A stretch of DNA of 64,000 bases from a virus, in the IMG/VR virus record IMGVR_UViG_3300033143_003851, positions 9,904 to 73,903 of that record; one strand, written 5' to 3'. The position numbers and the translations under genes are program-made. The notes below the pieces were generated by a model. That model was given only the letters and a program-made list of their open reading frames with translations. It had not been told where the DNA came from and made no database searches. Below are positions 6,078 through 55,092 of this stretch, piece after piece; positions within the stretch are counted from its first letter, which is position 1, and each line of letters begins with the position of its first letter.

Positions 6078-8225
6078 CTAATAATCAAATATGCTTTTCT
6101 GTTTCCCGTGTATTACGTCTTTTAAATCAAGTCTCTTAACTGCCCCATCAATAATACTAGCATAGTACTTAGTGTCGATTTCATATATAGTCTTTTCGTT
6201 TCTCTCAACAACAGGCCCAGTGGCCCTAAATATTAGCTTGTCATCAGGGTGGATTAACTTTGGGGCTTTCCCCTTGCTCATCACAAACTCATACTGTTCT
6301 CCATCAGTTGGTTGGATGCCATATGTTTCCTTCACCTGCCCAATTATCTGCATGCTTTGACAATTTTTTGACTTATACTGGTCAGGGGACTTTACTCTAA
6401 TCCTCATAGCTAGGTCCATAATCCCCATCGCCACATAAAACCGCTTGTAATTATAATATAGTTCCCTAAGCTTTTCATTGTCCTGCTTGAACCTAAAAAT
6501 AATTGCACTGTCCCTGAAATTGTCATACATGCTTGGCAACTTGCTGGCTCTGATACTGACACCTTTATATTTGAATTTGTTACCCCCTTGCCACAATATA
6601 TAATTTTTGCCCTTGGTGTCTCTAAAGTATGCCCCATCATACTTATCGGTCTTCATGGTCATTGTGTTTTCGTTGAGTAGTTGAAACTGGTCTATGAACT
6701 TGTTAATTAAACACTGTATTATAGTGTTAGGAAACTTACTGGTTGTATAAAAACCATCTGTATCTACAGCTATAACTGTTTTAAACAAGTTGTATCTTAA
6801 TATGTCTTTTTTAACTATATATTCTTTATATATGTTGTTAAAGAACTCATTATATAAACTAGTTGATACACCTTGTTCTATAGACTCTAGTCCACCCATA
6901 ACCCACTTAATAATTTCCCTGCCAATCCCAACGATGCTGACATATTGGCACAAGTCTGCATACTTAGCCCACTGCATGCCCATGTATCCAGTAATAGCAT
7001 TAAGAATAATCTTGATGCCCCCTTCTTGAGCGTGCAATTTTTGATATTCAGCTGAGTTTTCATCAAGTTTTGCCTTTTTAGCTTTAAGATCTACTCGAAT
7101 TTTATATAAAGCTCTAAAGTATTTTGGGATTCCACCCTCAACTTTCTGATCTATATCTATAACCCAAGTCTTATAACACCTCTCGTCTGGAATATGTAAC
7201 CTTAAAACATCGTCACCTTTAATATATTCAGAACTAAACTTATCTGTGTATGGTTCAAACCTAACAAACCTAGTTGTCTCAATTGATATATTAAATGTCA
7301 TCACAATATTAGGATACATACTGGCAAAGTCTGAGTGATATATAGGGTCAAGGTAGTATCCTGGTTTCATAGTATCTGTGAGAGCTGCCCTTATATTGTG
7401 GGCAATGTCTGGACCATACTTATCTATGTTAGTTTCTTTAAATGTGTAAATATCTTCTCCTAAATTCTCCCATATTGTTCTACATAGCTTGTTAGCAGGG
7501 TATGAACTGCTCATATATATATACTTTTCTACTGGGATGTCCAGCATGTTTCCAACCGTAATCCAGTTTCTAAAGTATGTATTAAAAAGCACAACGCTGG
7601 CATCAATATCATTTCTAAGATATGATTTTAGTTTTTCGGACCCCAACATATTTCTCATTTTCATATATTGGTTTCTATCTAGGTCCCAATATTCCCCGCT
7701 GGGGTTGAGGTGCTTCGCTACTGTTTTAAGTTTCCTATCTTTAAGATTAAATAGTCGCTGGTCCTTTGCTGACCCCTGAATGAAACTATCAAATATCAAC
7801 CGTTGTCCTAGTCGTATCTTAGGGATTTCCTGACGCCTACCCATAAGATATACAACCTCTTTAACATCTGGATCAATGTTAAAATCCTGAGTTGGGTCTT
7901 TAATAACCACCAGCTGAGTAGGATCTATATTATTTGTTTTAAGCCTACTAATAATATATGGTAAATCAAAACCCATAACAAAATAACCATGTAATATCTG
8001 GATACCGCCCTGTGGTATCTTGACATCGTCTGGTAAATCACTAACCTCATATCCAATCTGGATGATAGTGTTTCTTTCTGGGGTAGGAAATGTGCCATTT
8101 GTGTCAACTTCAATATCAAAATGAATTACTTTGTTCCAGTTTATAGGATCATTTATAAGCTTAATAAAATCCTCTAATATTTTTTTATCTGATTTAAAAT
8201 TTTCCGCTTCAAATATTTCCACCAC
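6078..8225 (-). CDS. polB: Family B DNA polymerase with 3'-5' exonuclease and C-terminal PIP box
   Basis: ExoI FDIEV, ExoII GYFVMGFDLPY, ExoIII YLRND, PolA DFASMYP, PolB KIILNAITGY, PolC VDTDG, C-terminal QKSIFDY. Confidence 0.95.
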   Translation of the reverse strand: MVEIFEAENFKSDKKILEDFIKLINDPINWNKVIHFDIEVDTNGTFPTPERNTIIQIGYEVSDLPDDVKIPQGGIQILHGYFVMGFDLPYIISRLKTNNIDPTQLVVIKDPTQDFNIDPDVKEVVYLMGRRQEIPKIRLGQRLIFDSFIQGSAKDQRLFNLKDRKLKTVAKHLNPSGEYWDLDRNQYMKMRNMLGSEKLKSYLRNDIDASVVLFNTYFRNWITVGNMLDIPVEKYIYMSSSYPANKLCRTIWENLGEDIYTFKETNIDKYGPDIAHNIRAALTDTMKPGYYLDPIYHSDFASMYPNIVMTFNISIETTRFVRFEPYTDKFSSEYIKGDDVLRLHIPDERCYKTWVIDIDQKVEGGIPKYFRALYKIRVDLKAKKAKLDENSAEYQKLHAQEGGIKIILNAITGYMGMQWAKYADLCQYVSIVGIGREIIKWVMGGLESIEQGVSTSLYNEFFNNIYKEYIVKKDILRYNLFKTVIAVDTDGFYTTSKFPNTIIQCLINKFIDQFQLLNENTMTMKTDKYDGAYFRDTKGKNYILWQGGNKFKYKGVSIRASKLPSMYDNFRDSAIIFRFKQDNEKLRELYYNYKRFYVAMGIMDLAMRIRVKSPDQYKSKNCQSMQIIGQVKETYGIQPTDGEQYEFVMSKGKAPKLIHPDDKLIFRATGPVVERNEKTIYEIDTKYYASIIDGAVKRLDLKDVIHGKQKSIFDY

Positions 8226-8235
8226 GCCACCGCCA

Positions 8236-8306
8236 TAGGCTGTGCAGGATTCGAACCTGCGCTGCCAGATCCAAAGTCTAGCGAACTACCATTATTCTAA
8301 CAGCCC
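8236..8306 (-). tRNA. tRNA-Gln(UUG), CCA not encoded
   Basis: Cloverleaf: GGGCTGT/ACAGCCT acceptor, CTAGA-CTTTGGA-TCTGG anticodon arm, GCAGG-TTCGAAT-CCTGC T arm. Confidence 0.9.
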
Positions 8307-8569
8307 CAAAATTTCACAACTTTAGCAATATCTCTTTTACGAGGATCAGATGATTTACTTAAAAAAGATATAGTCTCCATGTCTTTTTTCATTTTGTCTG
8401 TTAATCCACCACTAATAAAACTAAAATGTCTAGCTGTACTAAGTGTGGTGCCTCCTATTTCGCCAGTTAATATGTTTCTAAACGTTACATGTCCATAGTT
8501 TCCATCTGGTATAATCTCTATAATCTCCCAATATTGGCCGTTCTCTACTGTAATTAATCCAATGCTTAT
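8297..8569 (-). CDS. 90-aa hypothetical protein, probable AUA start (not in ORF track)
   Basis: Open frame (M)SIGLITVENGQYWEIIEII...LTDKMKKD fills the gap exactly; the ATA overlaps the upstream TAA (ATAA); weak similarity to 22348..22626. Confidence 0.55.
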   Translation of the reverse strand: MSIGLITVENGQYWEIIEIIPDGNYGHVTFRNILTGEIGGTTLSTARHFSFISGGLTDKMKKDMETISFLSKSSDPRKRDIAKVVKFWGC

Positions 8570-11047: not shown

Positions 11048-11377
11048 CTATTCCCTCTCTAGACTTTCTATTGCTTTATGTTCTGCTTCACAATCATTAA
11101 TTCCTTCAATAGAAAATGCCCAGTGAATTATCTCATGCTCAACAACGGTGCTTATAACATACTCAATAACTTCCTCACATGAGTCATCAACGACGCTTGT
11201 ATGGCACCACTGCATAGCTCCCAGAGAAACCTCAATTACGTTTGGTGGACAAAACAACCCTAACAAAATTGCACTGTTCTCTGCATCAATAAACGGACTT
11301 AAACTATATTCTATCTCGATCATTATATTCTCTCCTGTATAACCACCTGGGGCATGGGTTTTCCCCTGTTGAGGCAA
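11048..11377 (-). CDS. Small acidic zincin-like (HExxH) protein
   Basis: TVVEHEIIHWA...EAEH; likely start at MIEIE. Confidence 0.5.
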   Translation of the reverse strand: MPQQGKTHAPGGYTGENIMIEIEYSLSPFIDAENSAILLGLFCPPNVIEVSLGAMQWCHTSVVDDSCEEVIEYVISTVVEHEIIHWAFSIEGINDCEAEHKAIESLERE

Positions 11378-12317
11378 TCCGATCTGCCCACCCTACAGTG
11401 GCACTAATTCTTTCTATGATTCTATTTTCCTCTCGGTTATTAATTCCAACTGGAAACCACCTAGCATTTTTCTTAAAATACTCAAATATCTTAATTGGTT
11501 CCAATCCTTTTTCAAACCTTAAAAATACTGTAAGTGCCCAATACATATCATGGTCAGGCAACTTATCTAATAACATAACTTCTAAAAATGGTTGTGTAAT
11601 TCCTGCAGGCTTCTTAGGAATAAATTTTTTGGTCTCTATTTTAGGAACATCCATTAAAAGTACTTCTGGTTCAGAGGGTATATCTATGTCAACTTGCCCA
11701 ATTGATTTCTGAAATATTGTGCTGATGCGATCATCTATATTAATAGGAACACTATACCTGCCATTCCCTCTGGCACCACACAACCTAACGATGCCATTTC
11801 TTTTATATACACTAAGGTCCACATTTTTAGACCTGCCTATAGTAAGCCCATATTTTTGTAGGTTAAGATGGTCATACATCTTCTGAGTTTGTTGCTTCAG
11901 AAATATCATAGTTGAATACTCATCTGCATCAGACGGCTCTATATGCCATATTAAGTGGAGCCCCTTAACTCCACTAAATTTAACTATAGGTGGTGTCAAA
12001 GAAAAATTATATATGTCCCTAGCTGCATGCAACATATTCCATTTACCAGGTGAATCTAAGTCTATAACATACAAATATATATTATTATTTTGTTTAAGAC
12101 TAGAGCATGGACAGTATTGTGTTGGAGAATAGTCTGAACCTTCCCTAGGATTAAACCACACATCTCTGTCCTCCTGCCATTCAACAATGCGACTGAAACT
12201 AGGTGCAGGAGCAATGATTGAGTTACACTCATCCAATATTTCTCTATTAATTTTCATCACACCATCTCTTTTTACCGTCTTTGCGACAGTCTTTACATGG
12301 ACCAAATAAAGCTGCAC
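11304..12317 (-). CDS. Archaeo-eukaryotic primase (AEP) with C-terminal helical domain
   Basis: VIDLD (motif I), KFSGVKGLHL (motif II), VDLSVY...RL (motif III); likely start near 12257. Confidence 0.85.
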   Translation of the reverse strand: MQLYLVHVKTVAKTVKRDGVMKINREILDECNSIIAPAPSFSRIVEWQEDRDVWFNPREGSDYSPTQYCPCSSLKQNNNIYLYVIDLDSPGKWNMLHAARDIYNFSLTPPIVKFSGVKGLHLIWHIEPSDADEYSTMIFLKQQTQKMYDHLNLQKYGLTIGRSKNVDLSVYKRNGIVRLCGARGNGRYSVPINIDDRISTIFQKSIGQVDIDIPSEPEVLLMDVPKIETKKFIPKKPAGITQPFLEVMLLDKLPDHDMYWALTVFLRFEKGLEPIKIFEYFKKNARWFPVGINNREENRIIERISATVGWADRIASTGENPCPRWLYRREYNDRDRI

Positions 12318-12395: not shown

Positions 12396-12875
12396 CTACC
12401 CAAACATTGGATCAAACTTTTCTTTAGGTTCATTATATAGATTGTTTATAATAGTATCAATATCTTGACCCTGTGCTGATTTTTTCTCAATTGTATGCAC
12501 AGTATCAATACCTAAGCTGGCAACAAGTTCAGCTCTGTGTAGCTCTTCTATACCTAACAATATTAACATATTTAACAAAGTATTTAAGGTATATTCTACC
12601 TCATCTTTATCCAATTCTGTCATAAGTTCTGCTAACCTAGCTCTTGTTGTGCCGTGAGTAGTGAATAAAATTTTAGGGTTGCCCTCATCTTTTTCTTTTT
12701 CAATTTGTTTACTAATCGTAGTTACAATATTTTTTATAGCTTCTTTTCCTTTTGTCATATTCTCAACCATTATACCGCCCCTCCTTATGACATTGTCTCC
12801 AGTACGGACACCATTTTTTGTTGCAAAATTTGTATGTTGGATTCGATTGATATATGTTTCGATTGACACAATCAA
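12396..12875 (-). CDS. Putative ribbon-helix-helix DNA-binding protein
   Basis: ILFTTHGTTRARLAEL...TLNTLLNMLILLGIE strand-helix-helix pattern; likely start at MVENM. Confidence 0.4.
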   Translation of the reverse strand: MIVSIETYINRIQHTNFATKNGVRTGDNVIRRGGIMVENMTKGKEAIKNIVTTISKQIEKEKDEGNPKILFTTHGTTRARLAELMTELDKDEVEYTLNTLLNMLILLGIEELHRAELVASLGIDTVHTIEKKSAQGQDIDTIINNLYNEPKEKFDPMFG

Positions 12876-13647
12876 TGAAAAACCTGACCCGCCTAAGTAC
12901 TTTTTGAGCTAGATCATCAGGTGGAATTATAGCAACCCACTCACAAGTTCTTAAGTAGTGGCCTGCCATGAGTTCAGGAATTTGTCCATACTTCTCTGCA
13001 TATATGTATGAATAAAACTCTAGTTGTCTAATATATTCTTCTCGCATGGGCATCTTATATGGTTTACTAGTTTTATAGTCTACAATAGCTACCCCAGCAC
13101 TGTCCCCCATAGGGAGCACAGCATCAATCTTACCCCTTAATATAACTGGTAATTTTTCCCCCTCAGTGGTGATAACACACATATCAGATGAGATACGCAC
13201 ATCTATCTCAGTTGCTTTAGGGTGCATGTTCTTAAATGCTAAGAATGCTGGTTTCCCTGCATCCACATATACAAAGAACTGCATAACATACCAAAGAATA
13301 TATCTGTCAACAATCTTAGTAATATCTGTTAGTGTTTCCAACCAATCAATCTTGTTCTCTACACAGTATTTTTTAATTCCCCCCCGCTCAATCTCAGTAA
13401 TACATATATTGCTACCTATGTGTGCCATAAACTTGTGTAGTTCTGTCTCTGTCTTACAGTTATTTTTAATATCGTGCCAAGACAATAGACTTAGTTTCTC
13501 CACGATGTCATGGACAACTCTGCCTTTATATATGTGTATTGAAGGTTCCTCAGGAATCCTTAAAATATATCTATAGTAGTACTGAGATGGGCAAGCATAG
13601 AACTTGTTAATCATGGTGGGGGATACTCTGAACTCTTTGCTCACCAA
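12763..13647 (-). CDS. Cas4/RecB-like PD-(D/E)xK nuclease
   Basis: SPT..N.FYACP, GRVVH, RGKIDAV, IVDYKT, QLEFY, C-terminal C..C..C completing an Fe-S staple. Confidence 0.88.
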   Translation of the reverse strand: MVSKEFRVSPTMINKFYACPSQYYYRYILRIPEEPSIHIYKGRVVHDIVEKLSLLSWHDIKNNCKTETELHKFMAHIGSNICITEIERGGIKKYCVENKIDWLETLTDITKIVDRYILWYVMQFFVYVDAGKPAFLAFKNMHPKATEIDVRISSDMCVITTEGEKLPVILRGKIDAVLPMGDSAGVAIVDYKTSKPYKMPMREEYIRQLEFYSYIYAEKYGQIPELMAGHYLRTCEWVAIIPPDDLAQKVLRRVRFFIDCVNRNIYQSNPTYKFCNKKWCPYWRQCHKEGRYNG

Positions 13648-40497: not shown

Positions 40498-42246
40498 ATG
40501 GCAATGGCGCTCAAGGAATATATAGGCTCCAAAAATATCTTTATGGAAGAACTTAGGTGGCCAATTACAGTTGCTAAAGAGTCAAGCCGAGAGTTCGCCT
40601 ACCAAGAGATGTTAAAAATATATAATCGAGCAAACTTCTATATGAACCACTCTAAGAACGAAAAAGAGTTGATGTTAAAAGTTTTTAACGACTATGAAGT
40701 TTTTTGTATATTTTTTCGCCGGCTAAACCTTAGTGATATAGATGGCAACATACAACTAGCATCCATGTATCCTACGCCAGCTCAATCTAAAATTACAGAG
40801 ATGATATCTGAGTACGATACTATATATGGGATGTTCTCACGGCAGTCTGGTAAAACTGAGTGGGCATCTACATATGGTCCCTTCCAAGCTATTAGGTCTG
40901 AGGGATATATGTTAAATCTCCTAGCTCCCACTGAGAGGCAGTTAATTGTGATGAAAAATACCCACGATTTTCTTAGTGGGAATGAATACTTGAGGGAAAA
41001 CTTCGTGATGCCTAACAAAGGGGGAGAACTTAATAAGGAGAGCATCACATTCGGAAGGAACAAATCAAGAATATCATCTATGACACTCAGTCAGGCACAC
41101 AGTGGAGACACGAAGAGAGGTATAAGTGGGCACTGTATCATTGATGAGTTTCCGCTGTTAGATAAGAAAACTATTGATGATCTTATTGAGCCTATCCAAT
41201 CGAATGCAAGAATCAAGGTTAAGATTATATATGTGGGAACACCTAAGTTAGAATATAATCCAGATATCGAAACAGAAATGGATACGCTGATAGAGGCGGG
41301 TATAGCGGGCTTCATCCATGTAAACTGCTGGGAGAATATAGAGTTTGGGGCAACTGCCAGAGATAAGATATCTAGGCGATTCATTAAGTTTAATATTCCC
41401 TGCAAATATGGGAGGACAGGCTATTGTCCAAAGTTTTATAAAGATGGTGGGACATTTATTCCCCCAGACCCTAGGCGGGCAAGTTTTAAGTGCGACGAAG
41501 TATGTAAAAACTATGATTCATTTGTTATGGAGAATCTAGCAGAGTTTCCATCTGGATCAAATAGAGTGTTCCCTAAAAATTGGCTATATAATAATTCTCG
41601 GGCTGATGGCAGACTAACTCAACCTCACAATATCAGAGATGTTGGTGATAGGGTTATGTCAATTGATTTAGGGTTTGTTGGAGACCCTACAGTAATATTA
41701 GTTTGTGATCCTGTTTTGAAAACGGGGATGGAAGAATATGCTCTTAGAGTTATTGGTTGGCACGAGATTCAATCATCTGGAGACATGAGTCGAGGCAATG
41801 ACCCACTAAGAGAGGCCATCCAGAGATACTACTTACTATATAATCCTAATACCATATACATTGATATCACTAGGAGTCGGGAGTTTGTATATGGGTTAGT
41901 TAAACATGGGGATAAACTTATCCCTAGAAATAAATTTTATGCGTGTGAAGTGGAGCGGAAGAAAAATTCGTTTGGTGTGTACTGGGCTAACCATGCCACC
42001 AAACATGAGATGATGGTCAACCATAGGAGCCAAGTTCAGCAAGGGAATTGGATTGTTCCACAGAACCCAAGTGAGTTTTGGTCTACTTGGTTTAATGACC
42101 ACTACAAAACAAAGGCAGAGGAAAGTTCGGACCAAAGATATAAGCTATATCCAAATACTGGTCATACTTTGGCAGCTGCTATGCAAGCGAGTTTATGGCT
42201 TGCTGGAAAAGGAAGGGGATCTCCACCTAGTTTAATGGTGTTATAA
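40498..42246 (+). CDS. terL: Terminase large subunit
   Basis: Adenine-binding Q motif (PTPAQ), Walker A SRQSGKTE, APT..Q, RG, Walker B CIIDE, GTP, nuclease SIDLG..GDPT. Confidence 0.92.
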   Translation: MAMALKEYIGSKNIFMEELRWPITVAKESSREFAYQEMLKIYNRANFYMNHSKNEKELMLKVFNDYEVFCIFFRRLNLSDIDGNIQLASMYPTPAQSKITEMISEYDTIYGMFSRQSGKTEWASTYGPFQAIRSEGYMLNLLAPTERQLIVMKNTHDFLSGNEYLRENFVMPNKGGELNKESITFGRNKSRISSMTLSQAHSGDTKRGISGHCIIDEFPLLDKKTIDDLIEPIQSNARIKVKIIYVGTPKLEYNPDIETEMDTLIEAGIAGFIHVNCWENIEFGATARDKISRRFIKFNIPCKYGRTGYCPKFYKDGGTFIPPDPRRASFKCDEVCKNYDSFVMENLAEFPSGSNRVFPKNWLYNNSRADGRLTQPHNIRDVGDRVMSIDLGFVGDPTVILVCDPVLKTGMEEYALRVIGWHEIQSSGDMSRGNDPLREAIQRYYLLYNPNTIYIDITRSREFVYGLVKHGDKLIPRNKFYACEVERKKNSFGVYWANHATKHEMMVNHRSQVQQGNWIVPQNPSEFWSTWFNDHYKTKAEESSDQRYKLYPNTGHTLAAAMQASLWLAGKGRGSPPSLMVL

Positions 42247-42530
42247 TGAAGAAAGATAAATTTAATAGATTAGAAAATGATTGCCTTGTGATTTTAGCTG
42301 AGGTAGCAAGGAGACGTGGGGAACCTCAAACATATAATAAAATATCTGAATGGACAGGTGTGCCACTCACCACAGTTAGAGTGATATTGTCTTGGTCGTC
42401 TAAGCCTGATAATGCCCAACAGAATGACATGCTGTATAAGGTAGCCAAAAGGTTTGGATATGATTATTTAATTATAAGAAAACCGAAGAAGATTATAGAT
42501 GTCATATATAGGGGATTAGTTTATGGCTGA
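42246..42530 (+). CDS. HTH DNA-binding protein
   Basis: TYNKISEWTGVPLTTVRVIL. Confidence 0.65.
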   Translation: MKKDKFNRLENDCLVILAEVARRRGEPQTYNKISEWTGVPLTTVRVILSWSSKPDNAQQNDMLYKVAKRFGYDYLIIRKPKKIIDVIYRGLVYG

Positions 42531-43938
42531 AGAAAAAAAGCAAGATGAAGAAGATAAGCCCACCATGTTTGTTGGGGCAACAGGTCGCAGGTCTGGAGGA
42601 ACGTCTAGACCTGGGTGGGTTAATAAGTTTAGAGATGATACTGCTGGTGGACAAGAGAGCACTAGGTTTAGTGTGTATGAGATTTATGATTATGCGAAGT
42701 TTGGACCACAGGAGTATTTTCAGGCGTGGGATGAAGAGGATTTAGTAAATCCTTGGTTTACCTATCTACTTGATTTTATTAATAATCAACTGTTTGCAAA
42801 TTATCACTTTGAGGGAAAGGGGGCTCCGGCTGTCGAGAAATATTGGCGGGACCACAATATGTATAATAAGATATGGCAGTTAGGTAGGACCACATTAAAG
42901 TATGGGACAGGGATTGCCCAGAAAATTAAAACAAACCTTGGCGGTGTTAAGGGGTTGCGAATATTTTATACCCCTGATTTCAAAGTTGATAGAGATGAAA
43001 GGACGTGGGATGAGAAGTGGAAGTATAGTGGTACTGGAGATGCCATCTCTGACACATGGAAATATAATGATGGCAAGTCAAAGAAGTTTGTTATACTGAG
43101 ACCGTTTAATAGGCCAGAAACTCCTTGGGGATTCGCTATCGCTCATCAGTGTTATCACGCATTACAATCGCTATATAAAATTACAATAGAAGATATTCCT
43201 GCTGGAGCAGAGAATTTTATGACTATTGAGAGGGTTATTAGAGCAGACTTTAGTAACTATGTGAAGGAAGAAGATAAGTTGGCAGCTGGAAAAACACTTC
43301 AGGAAAATTGGAGTCGAGCTAATCCAGCTAAGGGAGATATTAGAATTATTGATAATCATCACGAACTTGGATATATGGGTTCACTTAGTGGTGGGACTCC
43401 AGCTAGGAAGTTGGAACACATCATGTCGTTTATCGAACCCCTTATGTCTGTAGTTCTGTTGAATTACTATATGGCTATTGGTATCATTAGGCAAGATGGG
43501 GCTAACAAGTCTTTAATCAAAAGACAAGAGTGGAAGGCTTTCGAACTGATGCAACCAATTAAAAAATATGTTGCTGAGGAAATTATCCGGCAATTTATTG
43601 AACCTCATGTCATTAAGAAGCGACAAGTTTATCTTGTGCATGACCCCCCATATGAGATGTGGTTAGAGCGGGCTGAAGAGGCTATCGCATTATATCAGGG
43701 GGGCATAGTGCCCAGAGAGTGGGCACAGAGTCAGATTGGATTTAATCCAGAGGAATTTAAAAGGAGATACGGCACATCGAAATTCACATATGTTGAAGAT
43801 ATTGAGAAAGAGTTAGGGCAAGCAAATGCTGGCCTTAAAGAACCTAAGAGTCGCACAAGTGGACAAAAAAGGAACCCTGAAAGCGAAAAGGGTAGTGATA
43901 ACGATAGTGCAACAGGAACAAAGAGGGAGAAACAATGA
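42523..43938 (+). CDS. Putative portal protein
   Basis: 471 aa after TerL; LKYGTG, PWG, LYQGGIVPREWAQSQIGF portal-like C-terminal motif. Confidence 0.78.
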   Translation: MAEEKKQDEEDKPTMFVGATGRRSGGTSRPGWVNKFRDDTAGGQESTRFSVYEIYDYAKFGPQEYFQAWDEEDLVNPWFTYLLDFINNQLFANYHFEGKGAPAVEKYWRDHNMYNKIWQLGRTTLKYGTGIAQKIKTNLGGVKGLRIFYTPDFKVDRDERTWDEKWKYSGTGDAISDTWKYNDGKSKKFVILRPFNRPETPWGFAIAHQCYHALQSLYKITIEDIPAGAENFMTIERVIRADFSNYVKEEDKLAAGKTLQENWSRANPAKGDIRIIDNHHELGYMGSLSGGTPARKLEHIMSFIEPLMSVVLLNYYMAIGIIRQDGANKSLIKRQEWKAFELMQPIKKYVAEEIIRQFIEPHVIKKRQVYLVHDPPYEMWLERAEEAIALYQGGIVPREWAQSQIGFNPEEFKRRYGTSKFTYVEDIEKELGQANAGLKEPKSRTSGQKRNPESEKGSDNDSATGTKREKQ

Positions 43939-44168
43939 GTGAAGAAGATATTACTAATAACGAACTTTTAGAGGCCATCACTAGTGAATTTAGTGATTTT
44001 AGAGACGACATCCAAGAATTACATGAAAAAGTTGGCGAAGTGAAGGGAGAACTCAGTGCCCACAAAGAAGACACAAGTGCCCACATTTATGAGGGAAAAG
44101 GGAAAGTTTTCGCCGGTTTAATCGCTACAATGGTAGTTATTTTGGAAGTAATTGCCACAATTATGTAA
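43935..44168 (+). CDS. Coiled-coil protein with C-terminal TM (holin/XhlA-like architecture)
   Basis: Heptad acidic region followed by a terminal hydrophobic helix. Confidence 0.5.
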   Translation: MSEEDITNNELLEAITSEFSDFRDDIQELHEKVGEVKGELSAHKEDTSAHIYEGKGKVFAGLIATMVVILEVIATIM

Positions 44169-44192
44169 TTGTAGATTAGAGAGAGTGAGTAA

Positions 44193-45158
44193 ATGTCTAA
44201 GAAATATCGGGTTAAGTTTTTGGATCTCAATACTACATACCATGATTCAGATAAAGAGGATCATGTTGGGATTCATCCTTCTTCTCATGTATTAGCCCTG
44301 TCTCAAAATCGTGAGCGGGCACTTAAGGGAGAAATTCCTGTTACTCTCAACCATTCCAATGACAGGATAGGGAGTGTTCTCAGTATTGATTTAGATGAGA
44401 ATGGGATTCCTGTTGCCATTATTGAAGTCGAAAAGGATGTCGATGTTAAGGGAATTTCCCCTGGGTTAAAGACGAACGATGTTCAAGATGGCTTAATCAT
44501 GGATTATGATCTCGATCATATTACAATTGTGAATAGTGATGATATTCAATCTAGAAAACCATTTGAGAGTGGTGATATGATTTTGTTAGGGGCAGATATT
44601 ATGGTTGAAGAAGAGAAAAAGAAAAAAGTTATACTGAATCCAAAAGATGATCCAGACATTGCTAAAGAACTTATGAAGAAACTCAAACATACTGAGATTG
44701 AAAAGGAGAAGCAGGAAAAGGAACTTGAACTTAAGTTGAAGAAACTTGAGGACATGGAAACTAAACTTGCTAACTCTATGGAAAAAATTAAGCAGTATGA
44801 AGATGAGCAAAGAACTAAGTTAATTAATGAGTTGTCGGATTCGGCAAAAAATATTATGGTGGAAGGTGGGATTGACATCAATGTTGTTGATATGGCTATT
44901 TTAGAACAGGCAGTCAAACTGTCTAATATTAATAAACCAACAACTACAGACAAAGTCAAAGAGGAAGTATTAGATGCCGGAGTTCCGCCTCCTGAGAGGA
45001 ACACATCAACTCCAGAGAAAGAGCAGATGACGAAGTTACAGGAAATCAGCATGGCTTCTAAGTATAAAAGCGGTTGGAAATATTTTACTGAAGAACAAGT
45101 AAAGCTCGCTAAAGAAGCTCTGGAGAAACATAAAGATTTATTTAAGAAATACTACTAA
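44193..45158 (+). CDS. Prohead protease-scaffold fusion
   Basis: PVTLNH..RIG.V, KGISPG, DHITIV protease-like N domain; charged coiled-coil C domain. Confidence 0.72.
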   Translation: MSKKYRVKFLDLNTTYHDSDKEDHVGIHPSSHVLALSQNRERALKGEIPVTLNHSNDRIGSVLSIDLDENGIPVAIIEVEKDVDVKGISPGLKTNDVQDGLIMDYDLDHITIVNSDDIQSRKPFESGDMILLGADIMVEEEKKKKVILNPKDDPDIAKELMKKLKHTEIEKEKQEKELELKLKKLEDMETKLANSMEKIKQYEDEQRTKLINELSDSAKNIMVEGGIDINVVDMAILEQAVKLSNINKPTTTDKVKEEVLDAGVPPPERNTSTPEKEQMTKLQEISMASKYKSGWKYFTEEQVKLAKEALEKHKDLFKKYY

Positions 45159-45169
45159 GGAGATATAAG

Positions 45170-46039
45170 ATGGGAAATTATGGAACATATGCTGGAGAAT
45201 ATCTTACCAGCAATAAGATTTTTACGGTGGATTGGTATGAAGGCACGCACGCTTCTGTTGCTACAATTCATTTGCCTGGATCTGGAGTTAGACAGGATGG
45301 TTATACCATCACTGTTCCGATAAAGGATGGTAATTTTGTTAAGGTATATACAAGTGCTGATAACGCTTTTCAGAAAGTTGCTGCTGATGACGATGGCGCT
45401 AAGGTAGTTGGTATTGCTATTGACTACCCTCAGGGCGACACTAGTGGTGTAACTCGAAGGACAGGAAATTGTTACTTTTTTACACCCGGAGATATTATCT
45501 TATGCACAGTTGATCCGGCTAATTCTGCAATTGTGATTGGTGATCCAGTTTCTATTGGAGCCACTGCTGTTGTGGATACTGCGTGTCATGGGGCATATGT
45601 TGATAAGGCTCCTGCTGGAGATCTTGGTTTTGGATATGCTTTAGACTCTGCTAGTGCAGCTGCTGGTGCTGGTAATTATATTCGGGTTATGATTAAGGCC
45701 GAGATGACTCGGGATCAGACTATTACAGCTAACTTAGGGGCAACCGCTTTAGAGCAAGTGATATATCCTTTGTTCCTGGCTCCATATGCTGGTGAACTTA
45801 TGTATGTCCGATATAAGGCAACTTCAGCTTCTGGAGATGCTTCGGCTAATATTGCAGTTGCAGGGGCAGATATTTGGTCTTCGGATAAGACTGATTTTGG
45901 TGCAACAGCTAAAGGTGTGGTTCCTGATGCAGCTACGACTTTTGCAGCTGGAGAACTAATTGCTTTAGATGTTAGTGCTAATGGTACTAATGTGGACGGA
46001 TTAATGGTTCAGTTAGAAGTTCGATATAAGGTTAGGTGA
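45170..46039 (+). CDS. Putative head decoration / cement protein
   Basis: Between scaffold and capsid; VVGIA, AIVIGDPV, GYALDSA motifs. Confidence 0.55.
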   Translation: MGNYGTYAGEYLTSNKIFTVDWYEGTHASVATIHLPGSGVRQDGYTITVPIKDGNFVKVYTSADNAFQKVAADDDGAKVVGIAIDYPQGDTSGVTRRTGNCYFFTPGDIILCTVDPANSAIVIGDPVSIGATAVVDTACHGAYVDKAPAGDLGFGYALDSASAAAGAGNYIRVMIKAEMTRDQTITANLGATALEQVIYPLFLAPYAGELMYVRYKATSASGDASANIAVAGADIWSSDKTDFGATAKGVVPDAATTFAAGELIALDVSANGTNVDGLMVQLEVRYKVR

Positions 46040-46046
46040 TTAAAAA

Positions 46047-47168
46047 ATGGCTTACGCAGATGATCGTGGGGCTATGGGTGGTTTTCAGGGTGATTCGCCT
46101 CTGGCGATTTTCCATCCTGAGCTCTGGCTCGCAGATTGGCAAGAATATATGGAAGCAGAGTTAGTGCTTGGGGCTATTCCGCCCGTTGAGACTCTTAATG
46201 ATGAGAGTTTCTTGTATGAGATTCATACCCCGCCTGGCTCTGATTCTGGGAAAAAGTTTCCCGCAGTGTATCAGTTTGGAGCTCAGGTTCCTTCTATCAC
46301 TGTGTCTGAGATTACAACTGGATCTGGGTTTATTACTGGTCGAGCATTTAAGACTATGGTTTCTCCTCGGGGACAAAACTCATTTAATGGTGTTTCTCGG
46401 ATTAAGAAGCATATGTTAAATTGGTGTGGAGATTGGATTGAGAAAAAAGTGTATCAGGATATTACAGGTGATACACTTTCTTCGGGGACATCTACTGTTA
46501 CTTGGGCTGATAGTGGCGTGTTTGATACTTTCCTTGATACTAATATGAATGGTGGATATTGTAGTTCTGGTGGAACCACAGATATGATTTGTATCGGTCA
46601 GGTTGATGGTTATGAGTGGGATGCCAATAATGGCGACCCTATTGATGACTTCACACGGATTGCAATGATTATGAAAAACCAGATGAAGGTTCAGGGAACA
46701 TCTGATACTACAATTACGATGAACCCTTCAACTTCGGTGGCACTTTTAGATAGTATCTCTATGGGTGCATTATATCGGTATCTTAGGGATGATGGTATCT
46801 ATTACGACAAGGTTGGTCTTGATGCAATTACAGTGCCTTCGCTGTTCGGTTTAACGTTTAGGCCTGCTGATCGTGGACTGCCTACTGGAACAGTTGATAT
46901 TGGTAACGTGTCTACTGGGTATGGACTTTGTCTTATGTATGATACTACAGATGTGCCTTTCAAAGGATATCAGTATTTCTTAGATAATTGGCATGGTTGG
47001 TCTCGTGGTGGGACTGTTAGTGGTTGGGACTTTATGACTAAGAGCCAGTTCGTTCCTGAGGGAGAGGGCGAGTTCGAAGCTAATATGCATCTTTCCATTA
47101 ACAATAAAGTTTGGTATCCTAAGAAACTTGTGCTTTATGGTGGATTCAGATCTGCAGAAAGTATCTAA
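46047..47168 (+). CDS. Putative major capsid protein (HK97 fold inferred)
   Basis: 373 aa, position, AGGTGA RBS, followed by a terminator; biased codon usage suggests high expression. Confidence 0.7.
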   Translation: MAYADDRGAMGGFQGDSPLAIFHPELWLADWQEYMEAELVLGAIPPVETLNDESFLYEIHTPPGSDSGKKFPAVYQFGAQVPSITVSEITTGSGFITGRAFKTMVSPRGQNSFNGVSRIKKHMLNWCGDWIEKKVYQDITGDTLSSGTSTVTWADSGVFDTFLDTNMNGGYCSSGGTTDMICIGQVDGYEWDANNGDPIDDFTRIAMIMKNQMKVQGTSDTTITMNPSTSVALLDSISMGALYRYLRDDGIYYDKVGLDAITVPSLFGLTFRPADRGLPTGTVDIGNVSTGYGLCLMYDTTDVPFKGYQYFLDNWHGWSRGGTVSGWDFMTKSQFVPEGEGEFEANMHLSINNKVWYPKKLVLYGGFRSAESI

Positions 47169-47199
47169 ATACTTTCTACAACAAATAGAATGACCCTTG

Positions 47200-47235
47200 G
47201 GTGGATGGGTATAATCCACCTAATGTTCTTTTTTT
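47200..47235 (+). terminator. Hairpin plus oligo-T terminator after the capsid gene
   Basis: GGTGGAT-N7-ATCCACC then TTTTTTT. Confidence 0.65.
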
Positions 47236-47250
47236 AAAAAAGAGCGTCAA

Positions 47251-47268
47251 GAATGTTTATATATATAA
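47251..47268 (+). promoter_or_regulatory. TATA-box promoter
   Basis: GAATGTTTATATATATAA upstream of a GAGGTGA RBS. Confidence 0.55.
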
Positions 47269-47299
47269 GCTAGCTCAAAAAAAATAGAGGTGAATTAAA

Positions 47300-49432
47300 A
47301 TGAGTTTAACCGTTGCTGGATTTAGTGGACCTTTAACAAATAAACATATGCGTCATAGTAAGTGGCGAAAGTTTGTTGTTATGGCCATCAATGATATGGT
47401 GATTGATTCAATTACGCTTGATAGCGGAGAAACAATTACATTGGCTGATGTTGTGATTGATGATGATGCCACTAATGACCAGCTTGATTTTAATGTTAAC
47501 GACGCAGGACATACGCTGCGTCTTATTAATGCAGGTGCTGGAGATTTTGATTTTAATACAGATGGAGATATAGTTGCTGCTAGTGATATTACTAGCACAG
47601 CTGGTACTATTGAGACATCAGCTGGTGTTATCAATATTAAACACGCAACTCCTAGTTTAGATATCTATGATACTAGCTGTACTGACGACGAAGTTAGTGC
47701 TCAGGTATTAGCTGCTGCTACTGATACATCTACAACTGCTGAAGATGTGGATGTAACACTTAAACAGAAAATTGCTGGAACACTTACGGCATTTTTAACA
47801 TCAGATGCAGATGGCGATATTACTCTTGGATCTGGTCGATCAGTGGTTGCAGACGGAGGCGGAAGCCTTACTGGAACTTGGTCTGATCTTGGTGATGTTA
47901 CTACAATTAATATTGATGGAGGTTCTATTGATGGAACAACGCTTGGAGCTGCTTCGGCATCTTCAGCTATCGTAACATCTGCTTCGATTGAGGGGGCAGC
48001 TCCTACATTAACATTTAAGGATACAGACTGTACTGATGCAGATGCCAATGCTACTATCCTCGCACAAGCTACAGATACCGGAACCGGTGCCGAAGATGTT
48101 GATGTTACATTCAGTCAACAGATTGCGGGCGCTCCTACAGCGTTTTTAACTTCTGACGCTGATGGTAATATTACTTTCGGAACTGGTAGACCACTTGTTG
48201 CTGATGGTGGGGGTTCTCTTACAGGAACTTGGTCCGACCTTGGAGCAGTAACTACTGTGGATATTAATGGCGGAACTGTTGATAATATTTCTACTTTATC
48301 TGTTGAGTCTGCAACTCCTAGTCTGGATTTAAAAGATTCTAGTTGCACAGATGCTGATGTTAATGCTCAGATTTTAGTGGCTGCTACGGCTACTGGAACA
48401 GGGGCAGAGAATATTGATGTTACTATTACACAGCAAATTAGTGGGACACCTACAGATGCTGTGTTGTTTGATGCAGATGGTGATATTGCTTTCGATAGTA
48501 CACGGACCGTTACAACTGGAGCACTTACTGGCACAGCTATTACAAGTACAAGCTTGCCTGGTCGAATCTTCGATTCTGTGGTTTCCTTAGACGAAACTTG
48601 GGGAATTGTTGCCGATAATGGGGTTGCTTGTGGATATGTTGGTGGTATGTCTGCTGAGATCTATACTGTCGATACTGCATATAAAACATATCGGTATGAT
48701 TATGGAACTGGGACAGACACATATACAGACTTAAGTAATGGTGGAACTTTACAGGAAGCTGCTGAAGAGGTTGGTGATGCTACTGTTCTAGTGTGCACAA
48801 GTCAATTTGCTGCTGTTAATTTCTTAAGTTCACAGTTAGCAACTTGGGGCGCTAATGGTGGATTATGGGAGTATGCTACTGCTGCCGATACTTTTGCTAC
48901 GCTTACATTTATCGAAGATAATACTGATGCTATTGATGAAGCTACTGGTCTGCGAGCAATGTCTCAAGATGGTGTAATGACCTTTATTCCGCCTACCAAT
49001 TGGTGGTCTGGTATTCATACAGCTAATACAGGAGCTACATTAGCTGCTGGATATGCTATTCGATATAGAATTACAGCAACTCAGCTAACACAGCCTGCAA
49101 TTGCTCATGCTGGTGGTCGAGGTTTAATACCTGTTGGAATTACAGCCAATACGGGGCATAGATATGATATGGCGGGCACTTTGTCTAAATTAAATATCCA
49201 TGCTGGAACTATTTCAGCTGCAAATGCTGATACTAAGTTCTGCGTGCATAATATTACTCAGAATACTTGGGGCGCTGAACAGACATGGACCAAACAAAAT
49301 CGGCATTTCTATATTGCTGATATTGCTGAGTCGATTACTGCTGGAGATGAGATTTGTGTGCTCGTTACGCAGGAAGATGGAACCACAGAATATGCTGGTG
49401 TGTCTTTCCATATGAAAATGGTAGAGGCATAA
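47300..49432 (+). CDS. Acidic repeat-containing virion fibre/decoration protein
   Basis: Three internal repeats (P.L...D..CTD....A..LA.AT.T....E..DVT..Q.I.G..T.....DADG.I); C-terminal domain shared with 49703..50713. Confidence 0.7.
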   Translation: MSLTVAGFSGPLTNKHMRHSKWRKFVVMAINDMVIDSITLDSGETITLADVVIDDDATNDQLDFNVNDAGHTLRLINAGAGDFDFNTDGDIVAASDITSTAGTIETSAGVINIKHATPSLDIYDTSCTDDEVSAQVLAAATDTSTTAEDVDVTLKQKIAGTLTAFLTSDADGDITLGSGRSVVADGGGSLTGTWSDLGDVTTINIDGGSIDGTTLGAASASSAIVTSASIEGAAPTLTFKDTDCTDADANATILAQATDTGTGAEDVDVTFSQQIAGAPTAFLTSDADGNITFGTGRPLVADGGGSLTGTWSDLGAVTTVDINGGTVDNISTLSVESATPSLDLKDSSCTDADVNAQILVAATATGTGAENIDVTITQQISGTPTDAVLFDADGDIAFDSTRTVTTGALTGTAITSTSLPGRIFDSVVSLDETWGIVADNGVACGYVGGMSAEIYTVDTAYKTYRYDYGTGTDTYTDLSNGGTLQEAAEEVGDATVLVCTSQFAAVNFLSSQLATWGANGGLWEYATAADTFATLTFIEDNTDAIDEATGLRAMSQDGVMTFIPPTNWWSGIHTANTGATLAAGYAIRYRITATQLTQPAIAHAGGRGLIPVGITANTGHRYDMAGTLSKLNIHAGTISAANADTKFCVHNITQNTWGAEQTWTKQNRHFYIADIAESITAGDEICVLVTQEDGTTEYAGVSFHMKMVEA

Positions 49433-49452
49433 TAATAAAAGGTGAATAATAA

Positions 49453-49716
49453 ATGGCTAAAATTCGATTTAAATCTGGTCGAGTTTTGGAGACCGAGAGA
49501 AATGCACTCCGCATTCCTAAGGAAGGAGAAGAGCCTACTGAGATTAAACTCTATGAAGAAGGCTCGGCTCCTGTTCCTTATGAGGTTGAAGAAAAAATTC
49601 GAGCAGTTTTAGAAGATATAGAAGACGACCCAAAAACTTGTCCTATTTGCGGGAAAAAGTTTAAAACAGCTAGAGGTTGTAAAACACATATTCGTATGAA
49701 GCATGGGGGCAACTAA
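49453..49716 (+). CDS. C2H2 Zn-finger protein
   Basis: CPICGKKFKTARGCKTHIRMKH. Confidence 0.8.
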   Translation: MAKIRFKSGRVLETERNALRIPKEGEEPTEIKLYEEGSAPVPYEVEEKIRAVLEDIEDDPKTCPICGKKFKTARGCKTHIRMKHGGN

Positions 49717-50713
49717 AATGGCTTATCATAAATCATATAAGCAGTTTTTATCAATAGATGATGTTTCAGCAACAACTGGATTTTTATTAGTTGATAAATC
49801 AGATACGACAAACTGGCCCCACAATACTCCAACTAGTGGAACAATTGGTCATGTTGTTATTGATGATATATGTGGTCATATTAATTTTGGTGCAGCTTCT
49901 GGTGCTAATGGGCATCTTAATATTGGCGTAATTAAAACTATTTATGATATTCCAGCTAGTCATCTAGTATATATTTATGACTATGGTGGGGGAACAGATA
50001 CCATATCTGTTATATCAGCTGGTGGAAACCTAACTGTTTCTGCTACTGGTGAAGAGATTGGAGACGCCACAATATTAGTTGCTCCTACACAATTTAACGT
50101 ATTTAATGTTGATGTAGCTACTGGAACAACTTGGGGAGGAGCAGGCGGAAAATGGCAATATGCTACTGCTGCAAATACTTGGTCTGATTTAACTATTATT
50201 ACCGACGGGTCAATCAGCGCTACTGATTCACTTGAACAAGATGGTACTGTAAAATTTGTTATGCCTACTGATTGGGTATCGGTAGCGCACACAGCTAATA
50301 CAGGATCAACAACTGCTGGATATGCAATTCGGTTTGTATTAACTGCAACTCAACTTACTCAACAGGCAATAGCACAGGCGGGAACTTTTGGATTAATTCC
50401 TGCAGCCTCATCTATAGTTAACTGGTTTACACGCTATCATGGAGAAAATGGTCAATATACTAATGTAGTGCTCTGTATAAAACCGATTTTAATGCCAATA
50501 GATCCACTTGCTCTTAATGTGGGGTTTGGTCTTCCACAGGAATCTCAAACACTTGGCGGAGCCGAAACTTATGTAGCAAATGGAACTACTATGTCTAGTC
50601 CGTATGGCGATAAAACTGCACTAGCAGTTGGAGATGTTGTTTTGAAAACATGTATTTCTACAGGAACCATGCGTTTTACAATTGGTATTGAATATCACAT
50701 TGAAAATGGTTAG
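49703..50713 (+). CDS. Virion beta-sandwich protein
   Basis: Shares a ~140-aa domain with 47300..49432; start probably 49718. Confidence 0.65.
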   Translation: MGATKMAYHKSYKQFLSIDDVSATTGFLLVDKSDTTNWPHNTPTSGTIGHVVIDDICGHINFGAASGANGHLNIGVIKTIYDIPASHLVYIYDYGGGTDTISVISAGGNLTVSATGEEIGDATILVAPTQFNVFNVDVATGTTWGGAGGKWQYATAANTWSDLTIITDGSISATDSLEQDGTVKFVMPTDWVSVAHTANTGSTTAGYAIRFVLTATQLTQQAIAQAGTFGLIPAASSIVNWFTRYHGENGQYTNVVLCIKPILMPIDPLALNVGFGLPQESQTLGGAETYVANGTTMSSPYGDKTALAVGDVVLKTCISTGTMRFTIGIEYHIENG

Positions 50714-50722
50714 GTGTAATAG

Positions 50723-51235
50723 TTGGCTGTAGATAATATCAACACAATGTTTAGAAATATTTCAGAGTTAGATACTACTGATATCCCTGATGTAAATTTA
50801 CAAGCTACATATATACCATTAGGTTTACAATATCTTAATAAGATGTGTCGGGTAGATTATACAATATCTGATTATACTGCTGGGACAGTGGGAACTGTGG
50901 AGATTAATGATACAGATGTAGGTAATATAATTGACCATATTTGTGCCAACATCACAGCTTACTTTGCTTGGACCACACATAGGATGAATTTTACTATAAG
51001 AAATAGTCGTGATTTTCCTGTGCCAGATGAGTTTTTAAGAAACGCTTGGCAACTTATGGCGGTTGTATATGATGATGTTGTTGTGTTTAATGACAAGTTA
51101 GCATACTATATTCCAGCCGATAAACTACATGATACGCCAGATGCGTATATGACATGTGTGGTTGGAGACTCTACAAAAGAAGGTGGTTTTAGATCAGTTG
51201 ATGCTAATCAAAGTGTATCAGGCAGGGATAGGTAA
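50723..51235 (+). CDS. Putative head-tail adaptor
   Basis: Size, helical character and position; TTG start with AGGTG RBS. Confidence 0.5.
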   Translation: MAVDNINTMFRNISELDTTDIPDVNLQATYIPLGLQYLNKMCRVDYTISDYTAGTVGTVEINDTDVGNIIDHICANITAYFAWTTHRMNFTIRNSRDFPVPDEFLRNAWQLMAVVYDDVVVFNDKLAYYIPADKLHDTPDAYMTCVVGDSTKEGGFRSVDANQSVSGRDR

Positions 51236-51708: not shown

Positions 51709-51719
51709 GAGAGTGAAGC

Positions 51720-52637: not shown

Positions 52638-52639
52638 TT

Positions 52640-53314: not shown

Positions 53315-53358
53315 TAAAGTTTATATATAGAATTGAACAAGAAATATATGGTGATTTT

Positions 53359-55089: not shown

Positions 55090-55092
55090 AGT

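What the first reader, a model, noticed from the sequence alone, without database searches (positions are those of the whole stretch)
7950..8225. PolB proofreading domain with swapped segments (non-circular permutation of the RNase H fold)
In canonical PolB the order is ExoI (FDIE) - II.I.Y strand - V.v..sE.e.l..F...i...dP (strand+helix) - ExoII. Here a segment matching that strand+helix (VEIFEAENFKSDKKILEDFIKLINDP) is at the extreme N-terminus, before ExoI (HFDIEV), and only a short linker (SDLPDDVKIPQGG) joins IIQIGY to ExoII. Inference: beta3-alphaA-beta1-beta2-beta4 rewiring, which is topologically feasible because beta1 and beta4 are adjacent parallel strands. The usual N-terminal domain is absent and the ExoII Asn is replaced (GYF).
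Basis: partly seen in the sequence, partly recalled or inferred. Interest (0 to 1): 0.7.

Follow-up and report, generated by a model that had tools for sequence, protein, structure and literature searches.

The report
Viral DNA polymerase with rewired proofreading domain
A family B DNA polymerase of an uncultured tailed virus has lost its N-terminal domain. One strand and helix of its proofreading domain now sit at the very start of the protein, yet are predicted to fold back into their usual place, a rare natural rewiring of an ancient enzyme fold.

Summary
The 715-aa PolB (window 6078-8225, minus strand) starts 10 nt after a tRNA-Gln gene and has no N-terminal domain. Only 13-14 residues lie between strand beta2 and the ExoII strand, against about 30 in relatives.

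- **Sequence mapping:** a profile of 80 canonical relatives maps residues 4-25 to the beta3-alphaA columns, 32-65 to ExoI/beta1-beta2 and 76-106 to ExoII. That order is non-collinear, and 0 of 2000 shuffles reach the score.
- **Second member:** a 45%-identical metagenomic fragment (P0018) has the same order. The same protein also sits on a second contig, and the genome is a complete 73.9-kb virus with terminal repeats. Misassembly is therefore unlikely.
- **Structure prediction:** AlphaFold2 predicts a strand at 3-6 and a helix at 14-25 with pLDDT 92-96. A split-chain ESMFold2 test scored 0.90 (best control 0.02). It pairs strand 3-6 antiparallel with beta2 and lays the helix on alphaB, which is where beta3 and alphaA normally sit.
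- **Catalytic residues:** all DEDDy residues are kept.
- **Nearest relative:** P0015 also lacks the N-domain but has the normal order.

I read this as a real non-circular permutation, probably made by partial duplication and deletion. It is a new variant of a known enzyme. This scan had not noted the rewiring on other DNA.

The parts
6078..8225 (-). Family B DNA polymerase gene, 715 aa (P0001), with no N-terminal domain
   Evidence: ORF. Pfam DNA_pol_B 2.9e-16 and DNA_pol_B_exo1 5.4e-07. AF2 mean pLDDT 88.6, pTM 0.86. VIA-align Z 22.6, rmsd 4.5 A, 559 residues aligned to KOD polymerase 8s84_A.
8145..8225 (-). Residues 1-27: relocated beta3 (strand 3-6) and alphaA (helix 14-25), ending in the 'DP' that normally follows alphaA
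   Evidence: Profile of canonical relatives maps residues 4-25 to columns 149-171; 0 of 2000 shuffles reach the score. AF2 pLDDT 92-96. ESMFold2 contacts with beta2 and alphaB. 35% identical to P0018, close to the 39% for residues 101-270, the rest of the stretch shared with P0018.
8133..8144 (-). Residues 28-31 (INWN): new connector from alphaA to beta1. It resembles the 'NT..LK' residues that precede beta1 in canonical relatives.
   Evidence: Read from alignments A1 and A3. That this is the duplication junction is an inference.
8037..8132 (-). Residues 32-63: beta1 with ExoI (D37, E39) and beta2
   Evidence: Profile columns 111-146, score 36.8 bits. AF2 strands 32-40 and 54-63. D37 and E39 are invariant.
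8001..8036 (-). Residues 64-75: short linker where beta3-alphaA normally sits. 'LPDDVKI' may be a vestige of the start of alphaA.
   Evidence: 13-14 residues here against about 30 in relatives. Only 25% identical to P0018. The vestige idea is not statistically supported.
7935..8000 (-). Residues 76-97: beta4, ExoII (F82 replaces Asn; D87 kept) and alphaB
   Evidence: Profile columns 176-206, 31.3 bits. AF2 strand 76-80 and helix 83-97.
7608..7622 (-). ExoIII YxxxD (Y202, D206)
   Evidence: Invariant in A1; coordinates checked.
6984..7337 (-). Polymerase motifs A (SDFASMYPN, residues 298-306) and B (KIILNAITGY, 405-414; Thr replaces the usual motif-B Tyr, as in the sister clade)
   Evidence: Alignments A1 and A3; coordinates checked.
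6753..6764 (-). Polymerase motif C DTDG (488-491)
8236..8306 (-). tRNA-Gln (UUG) gene ending 10 nt before the GTG start. It bounds the N-terminus of the polymerase.
   Evidence: ARAGORN; sequence.

Best explanation
This is a working replicative family B DNA polymerase whose 3'-5' proofreading (DEDDy, RNase H-like) domain carries a natural non-circular permutation. The edge strand beta3 and helix alphaA normally lie between beta2 and beta4. Here they are encoded at the extreme N-terminus, ahead of beta1 (ExoI), and a 13-14-residue linker joins beta2 directly to beta4 (ExoII).

In three dimensions the N-terminal strand is predicted to pair antiparallel with the free edge of beta2. The helix is predicted to lie on the same face as alphaB. 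This restores the usual 3-2-1-4-5 sheet. The catalytic residues D37, E39, D87, Y202 and D206 are untouched, so proofreading should work as in other PolBs (inferred).

The likely origin (inferred) is an ancestor that already lacked the N-terminal domain, like P0015. A partial tandem duplication of the 5' end, spanning pre-beta1 to the end of alphaA, would be followed by loss of beta1-beta2 from the first copy and decay of beta3-alphaA in the second copy into the linker.
For: - **Non-collinear profile mapping:** residues 4-25 map to columns 149-171, 32-65 to 111-146 and 76-106 to 176-206, in both P0001 and P0018. 0 of 2000 shuffles reach either score.
- **Spacing:** the ExoI-ExoII spacing is uniquely short in these two proteins.
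- **Independent sequences:** P0018 is 45% identical, comes from another metagenome and starts at the same point. The same protein is on a second contig of 15.7 kb. The genome is complete with terminal repeats.
- **AlphaFold2:** strand 3-6 and helix 14-25 at pLDDT 92-96 despite a misaligned MSA. The P0018 model shows the same elements at pLDDT 77-89.
- **Structure alignment:** VIA-align alignments all start at residue 27-31.
- **Split-chain ESMFold2:** ipSAE 0.90 against a best control of 0.02. The mark was reached by 51 of 78 solved complexes and 2 of 108 mismatched pairs. Runs agree in at least 98% of contacts and the partner pLDDT is at least 91. Contacts are 3-6 with 55-59 in antiparallel register, and 13-20 with 53/54/57 and 91/94/95/98. 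The pLDDT of the domain falls from 80 to 62-67 when the segment is replaced.
- **Published topology:** sheet order 32145 with alpha1 and alpha2 on one face (PMC3985635).
- **Catalytic residues:** conserved.
- **Tree:** P0001 groups with the N-domainless but collinear P0015 (SH-aLRT 99), next to a canonical clade (97).
Against: - No coordinates were available, so the placement rests on a contact list and secondary structure, not on a superposition.
- Both predictors know the canonical fold and may fill the empty site from memory.
- Only two members are known, and one is a 270-aa fragment on a 1.5-kb contig.
- No reads could be mapped.
- Exonuclease activity is untested, and ExoII has Phe for Asn.
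- The duplication-deletion route has only suggestive traces ('DP' after the helix, 'NWNK' before beta1, 'LPDDVKI' in the linker). The profile does not extend into the linker.
Confidence: 0.8

Rival explanations
1. Truncation plus deletion, with no permutation. On this reading the first 27 residues are what remains of the canonical segment just before ExoI (the '..lidkPDFF..' helix at the N-domain/exo border). Beta3-alphaA was simply deleted, leaving a reduced four-stranded exonuclease core.
For: MAFFT placed the N-terminus on the pre-ExoI columns ('LINDP' against 'LIDEP') in A1 and A3. The residues just before beta1 (NWNK) do resemble the canonical pre-beta1 residues.
Against: - HMMER chose the beta3-alphaA columns, not the pre-ExoI columns, for both proteins, and no shuffle came close.
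- None of 50 sequential structure alignments aligns residues 1-26 with the pre-ExoI segment of solved PolBs.
- The predicted contacts are with beta2 and alphaB.
Confidence: 0.09
2. The proofreading domain is decaying. The protein is a polymerase with an inactive, structurally damaged exonuclease remnant, and the N-terminal segment has no defined role.
For: ExoII Asn is replaced by Phe. The N-domain is lost and the domain is shortened.
Against: - All five DEDDy residues are kept, also in P0018, which keeps the Asn too.
- The N-terminal segment is about as conserved between the two members (35%) as residues 101-270 (39%), while the linker is not (25%).
- The models are confident.
- Two canonical relatives also carry Phe at the Asn site.
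Confidence: 0.07
3. The arrangement is an assembly or gene-calling artefact: a chimeric join, or a wrong start that hides an upstream exon or N-domain.
For: The contig is metagenome-derived. No sequencing run could be listed to map reads.
Against: - The same protein is on an independent 15.7-kb contig.
- A 45%-identical protein from another sample has the same order and the same start.
- The genome closes with terminal repeats and is rated complete.
- A tRNA gene sits 10 nt upstream.
- No N-domain-like sequence exists in any frame of the genome.
Confidence: 0.03

Closest known systems
Canonical viral/metagenomic family B polymerases of the sister clade (P0016, P0003, P0017, P0020; 31-35% identity)
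   Same: Same polymerase motifs, including the clade-specific Thr in motif B. Same ExoI, II and III residues. Their beta3-alphaA segment ('..YDDDEKII.DFF.F...DPD') is recognisably the same sequence as the N-terminus here.
   Different: They have an N-terminal domain of about 110 aa and the collinear order beta1-beta2-beta3-alphaA-beta4, with 67 residues from ExoI to ExoII.
P0015, a 687-aa metagenomic PolB that begins at beta1
   Same: Nearest relative on the tree (SH-aLRT 99). It also lacks the N-terminal domain and shares the insertion ahead of the DTDG motif.
   Different: It keeps the normal order, with beta3-alphaA between beta2 and beta4. It looks like the state before the permutation.
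Major capsid protein of Bordetella phage BPP-1, a non-circular permutation of the HK97 fold (PMC3863775)
   Same: A natural swap of two adjacent structural elements in the sequence, with the three-dimensional fold preserved. The authors describe this as rare in nature.
   Different: It is a different fold and function. No sequence similarity to the unpermuted form is left there. Here the moved segment is still recognisable by sequence, and a collinear close relative exists.
RNase H-like / DnaQ-like DEDD exonuclease superfamily (Majorek et al. 2014, PMC3985635)
   Same: Five-stranded 32145 sheet, beta2 antiparallel, alpha1 and alpha2 on one face, and acidic catalytic residues on beta1, after beta4 and on the C-terminal helix.
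   Different: The survey describes one connectivity, and the word 'permut' does not occur in its text. Here the connectivity is 3-A-1-2-4.
Protein-primed PolBs such as phi29 DNA polymerase (own knowledge, not tested here)
   Same: They also start essentially at the exonuclease domain, without the N-terminal domain of RB69 or archaeal enzymes.
   Different: Their exonuclease domain is collinear and they carry TPR1/TPR2 insertions. No sign of these was found here: the best fold matches are archaeal PolB, Pol delta, RB69 and Pol II.

Membership tests
Family B DNA polymerase (Pfam PF00136 / PF03104) | Profile match of the polymerase domain above the curated cut-off | tested here: met
   PF00136 scores 59.7 bits against a cut-off of 23, over residues 287-698. 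PF03104 scores 29.7 bits against 23. phrog_262 DNA polymerase 1.3e-25.
Family B DNA polymerase (Pfam PF00136 / PF03104) | Polymerase motifs A (DxxSxYP), B (K...N...G) and C (DTDG) | tested here: met
   SDFASMYPN at 298-306, KIILNAITGY at 405-414 and DTDG at 488-491. The motif-B Tyr is Thr, as in P0003, P0015 and P0016.
Family B DNA polymerase (Pfam PF00136 / PF03104) | Overall fold like solved PolBs | tested here: met
   Foldseek E 1.8e-24 to 5mdn_A. VIA-align Z 22.6, rmsd 4.5 A, 559 aligned to 8s84_A; Z about 19-20 to RB69, Pol II, Pol delta and HSV polymerase.
Family B DNA polymerase (Pfam PF00136 / PF03104) | N-terminal domain preceding the exonuclease domain (typical of RB69, archaeal and Pol delta-like members) | tested here: not met
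   ExoI is at residue 36 with a tRNA gene 10 nt upstream. No N-domain match anywhere in the genome. This is typical rather than universal: P0015 also lacks it.
DEDDy 3'-5' exonuclease (DnaQ-like, RNase H-like fold) | Catalytic residues: ExoI DxE, ExoII D, ExoIII YxxxD | tested here: met
   D37, E39, D87, Y202 and D206 are invariant in A1. The ExoII Asn is Phe.
DEDDy 3'-5' exonuclease (DnaQ-like, RNase H-like fold) | Spatial 3-2-1-4-5 sheet with alphaA and alphaB on one face | tested here: met
   By prediction only. Strand 3-6 is antiparallel on beta2 (55-59), and helix 13-20 lies on alphaB (91-98), beta2 and beta1. ipSAE 0.90 against a best control of 0.02. The criterion comes from PMC3985635.
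DEDDy 3'-5' exonuclease (DnaQ-like, RNase H-like fold) | Canonical chain connectivity beta1-beta2-beta3-alphaA-beta4 | tested here: not met
   The order here is beta3-alphaA-beta1-beta2-beta4. This is the finding itself. Homology of each piece is clear, so it is a permuted member, not an outsider.
DEDDy 3'-5' exonuclease (DnaQ-like, RNase H-like fold) | Exonuclease activity | not testable with these tools
   Needs an enzyme assay.

The most novel reading that the evidence does not exclude
This may be the first natural non-circular permutation described in the RNase H-like / DEDD exonuclease fold, and it sits inside an essential replicative polymerase. The moved piece is still recognisable by sequence, and a collinear N-domainless sister (P0015) survives. 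Together these would preserve a near-complete stepwise record of how a segment swap evolves by duplication and deletion without loss of function.
Probability: 0.45. Interest if true: 0.75.

Novelty: new variant of a known kind. Interest (0 to 1): 0.62.

Why it matters
Changes of chain connectivity within an ancient, conserved catalytic fold are rare. Those known, such as the BPP-1 capsid protein, usually lack any sequence trace of how they arose.

Here the moved strand-helix still matches its counterpart in relatives. The catalytic residues are untouched, and the closest relative shows the likely preceding state. That makes the route of a non-circular permutation directly testable: truncate the N-terminal segment, restore the canonical order, and assay proofreading.

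It also shows that the RNase H-like core tolerates rewiring of its beta3-alphaA unit, which is useful for protein design. Finally, it warns that collinear profile searches under-annotate such domains: Pfam saw only residues 32-64 as its best exonuclease stretch.

Tried and rejected
- **More permuted members:**
  - Scans of viral contigs and metagenome contigs found none.
  - A word-index search with residues 1-140 and with P0018 against longer proteins returned only the window's own protein.
  - The exhaustive HMMER search gave two 50%-identity clusters with this order among the 150 listed.
- **Closed or empty tools:** For read mapping, no sequencing run was listed.
- **N-domain supplied in trans:** the small ORF between UDG and the tRNA (8297-8560) has no Pfam or PHROG match. 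No frame of the genome matches the N-domain profile.
- **Known phages:** tblastn gave only distant T4-like cyanophage gp43 hits to the polymerase domain.
- **Linker as a vestige of the second beta3-alphaA copy:** A4 lines 'LPDDVKI' up with 'YDDDKKI', but the profile match stops at the linker. It stays a suggestion.
- **Model coordinates:** they are not exposed, so no sequence-order-independent superposition was possible.
- **Literature:** no paper on permuted PolB, DEDD or RNase H folds was found in the held library.
- **Host:** not determined. The structural genes have no Pfam or PHROG matches except a tail tape-measure-like domain.

Full report
**What is there.**
The region lies at the 5' end of a 715-codon ORF on the minus strand (6078-8225; GTG start at 8225 or 8222). 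It is a family B DNA polymerase:
- Pfam DNA_pol_B (59.7 bits) and DNA_pol_B_exo1 (29.7 bits), and phrog_262.
- An AlphaFold2 model with mean pLDDT 88.6 and pTM 0.86.
- That model aligns to archaeal PolB, RB69 gp43, E. coli Pol II, Pol delta and HSV polymerase. The best match is Z 22.6, rmsd 4.5 A, 559 residues to 8s84_A.

A tRNA-Gln(UUG) gene (8236-8306, same strand) ends 10 nt before the start codon. The protein therefore cannot extend further upstream. The window belongs to a 73,903-bp virus record with direct terminal repeats, rated complete. Neighbouring genes are a UDG, a ribonucleotide reductase, a thymidylate kinase, a methyltransferase and an exonuclease.

**Checking the observation.**
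The closest full-length relatives (24-35% identity) are canonical. They have an N-terminal domain of about 110 residues, then ExoI, then beta2, then a '..YDDD.kI..F...i...DPD' strand-helix, then 'GYN...FD.PY'.

The window's protein has ExoI at residue 36. Only 13-14 residues separate 'IIQIGYEV' from 'IQILHGY'. From ExoI to the FD of ExoII is 50 residues here, against 67-97 (one at 60) in 80 canonical relatives. The only other protein with short spacing is P0018, a 270-aa fragment from another JGI metagenome. P0018 is 45% identical, begins at the same position and has the same order.

I built a profile HMM from the N-terminal halves of 80 canonical relatives and searched it against both proteins.
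- For P0001, HMMER returned three local matches: residues 4-25 on profile columns 149-171 (beta3-alphaA), 32-65 on columns 111-146 (ExoI/beta1-beta2) and 76-106 on columns 176-206 (beta4/ExoII).
- P0018 gave the same pattern.
- The columns missing from the usual place are exactly the ones matched by the N-terminus.
- Neither N-terminal segment's score (11.2 and 9.5 bits) was reached by any of 2000 shuffles.

The replaced ExoII Asn (Phe82) is also real. It is not special, because P0018 keeps Asn and two canonical relatives also have Phe.

**Is it an artefact?**
Several results argue against one.
- The identical protein occurs on a second contig of 15.7 kb.
- P0018 shows the order in a diverged lineage.
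- The genome is closed by terminal repeats.
- No N-domain-like sequence exists in any reading frame of the genome, by protein search or by profile search.

**Where does the N-terminal segment sit in space?**
AlphaFold2 was given an alignment in which MAFFT had spread residues 1-30 over unrelated N-domain columns. That biases against the hypothesis. It still predicted a strand at 3-6 and a helix at 14-25 with pLDDT 92-96. These are followed by beta1 (32-40), beta2 (54-63), beta4 (76-80) and alphaB (83-97).

All 50 best sequential structure alignments to solved PolBs begin at model residue 27-31, equivalent to KOD 132-135 and RB69 104-108. The segment therefore does not occupy the place of the canonical pre-ExoI segment.

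Because coordinates are not exposed, I split the domain into residues 1-31 and 32-285 and ran the complex test. This uses ESMFold2 without alignments.
- The score was 0.90 (three runs: 0.89-0.91) against a best control of 0.02.
- This mark was reached by 51 of 78 solved complexes and 2 of 108 mismatched pairs.
- The runs agree in at least 98% of contacts, and the partner pLDDT is at least 91.
- In the contact list, residues 3-6 run against 55-59 in antiparallel register (59 with 3/4, 57 with 4/5, 55 with 6).
- Helix residues 13-20 touch beta2 and alphaB. Further contacts go to beta1 and beta4 (73-78).
- The rest of the domain dropped from pLDDT 80 to 62-67 when the segment was replaced by unrelated peptides.

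This matches the RNase H-like core as published: sheet order 32145, beta2 antiparallel, alpha1 and alpha2 on the same face (PMC3985635).

A pass of this test can reflect the model's memory of the canonical fold. Here that is the question being asked, but it remains a prediction. A shallow-alignment AlphaFold2 model of P0018 has low overall confidence (mean 57.5). It shows the same element order, and the N-terminal strand-helix is its most confident part (77-89).

**How it most likely works.**
- Shown: the pieces of the exonuclease domain are all present but in the order beta3-alphaA-beta1-beta2-beta4.
- Shown: the DEDDy residues D37, E39, D87, Y202 and D206 and polymerase motifs A, B and C are conserved.
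- Shown: the moved segment is about as conserved between the two members (35%) as residues 101-270, the rest of the stretch shared with P0018 (39%), whereas the linker is not (25%).
- Predicted: the moved segment refolds into its ancestral site.
- Inferred: the enzyme replicates the viral genome with normal proofreading, and the rewiring is structurally neutral.

**Origin (inferred).**
On a tree of 49 relatives, P0001 groups with P0015 and its fragment-like relative P0019 (SH-aLRT 99). This group lies next to the canonical clade P0016/P0003/P0017/P0020/P0022/P0029 (97) (quick search, trait columns not removed).

P0015 begins at beta1, so it lacks the N-domain, but it has the normal order. It shares an insertion ahead of DTDG with P0001. 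The simplest path has three steps:
1. Loss of the N-domain.
2. Partial tandem duplication of the 5' end, from a few residues before beta1 to the 'DP' that ends alphaA.
3. A new start at beta3 of copy 1, and decay of beta3-alphaA in copy 2 into the linker.

Traces consistent with this path:
- 'DP' directly after the N-terminal helix.
- 'NWNK' before beta1, resembling the canonical 'NT..LK'.
- 'LPDDVKI' in the linker, lining up with 'YDDDKKI'.

None of these traces is statistically supported.

**Comparison with what is known.**
The protein is a family B polymerase by profile, motifs and fold. It fails two typical features: the N-terminal domain and the collinear connectivity of the exonuclease domain.
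- The survey of the RNase H-like superfamily describes a single connectivity and does not mention permutation.
- Full-text searches found no report of a permuted PolB, DEDD or RNase H fold. The library is incomplete, so this is not proof of novelty.
- The nearest conceptual precedent is the non-circularly permuted HK97 fold of the phage BPP-1 capsid protein. Its authors call such swaps rare, and no sequence similarity to the unpermuted form remains there (PMC3863775).

**Verdict.**
I rate it a new variant of a known kind, with confidence about 0.8 that the permutation is real and structurally as proposed. Interest is 0.62.

It would surprise specialists in polymerases and protein evolution, and it offers a clean test case. 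It rests on two sequences and on predictions, and it probably does not change what the enzyme does.

Noticed in passing
window 8236-8306 (-): A tRNA-Gln(UUG) gene ends only 10 nt before the polymerase start codon. The only possible starts are two adjacent GTG codons preceded by 'GGCGGTGGC'. The window holds five tRNA genes in all: Gln, Leu, Thr, Met and Ala.
   Followed up: partly
window 8297-8560 (-): A small open frame between the UDG gene and the tRNA has no Pfam or PHROG match and no similarity to the PolB N-domain profile. Another first-stage note (e1-6046207) proposes a frameshift extension of UDG here. I did not test that.
   Followed up: partly
window 6762-6881 (-), PolB residues 449-488: An insertion of about 35 residues lies in the palm domain just before the DTDG motif. 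It is partly low-confidence in the model (pLDDT below 50 at 468-478). It is shared with P0015 and absent from the other relatives.
   Followed up: no
window 6984-7013 (-), PolB residues 405-414: Motif B reads K...NAITGY: a Thr stands where the usual motif-B Tyr does. The whole P0003/P0015/P0016 clade shares this Thr, so it is a clade trait rather than a peculiarity of this gene.
   Followed up: partly
window 40498-57144 (+): The large genes of the plus-strand arm, presumably the structural module, have no Pfam, PHROG or known-phage match. The exception is a tail tape-measure-like domain (PF10145) at 55093-57144. The virus is far from any described phage and its host is unknown.
   Followed up: partly
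window 11304-12317 (-) and 12763-13647 (-): A weak primase-polymerase-like match (LigD_Prim-Pol, E 0.05) and a PHROG exonuclease (2e-14) lie in the same replication block as the polymerase.
   Followed up: no
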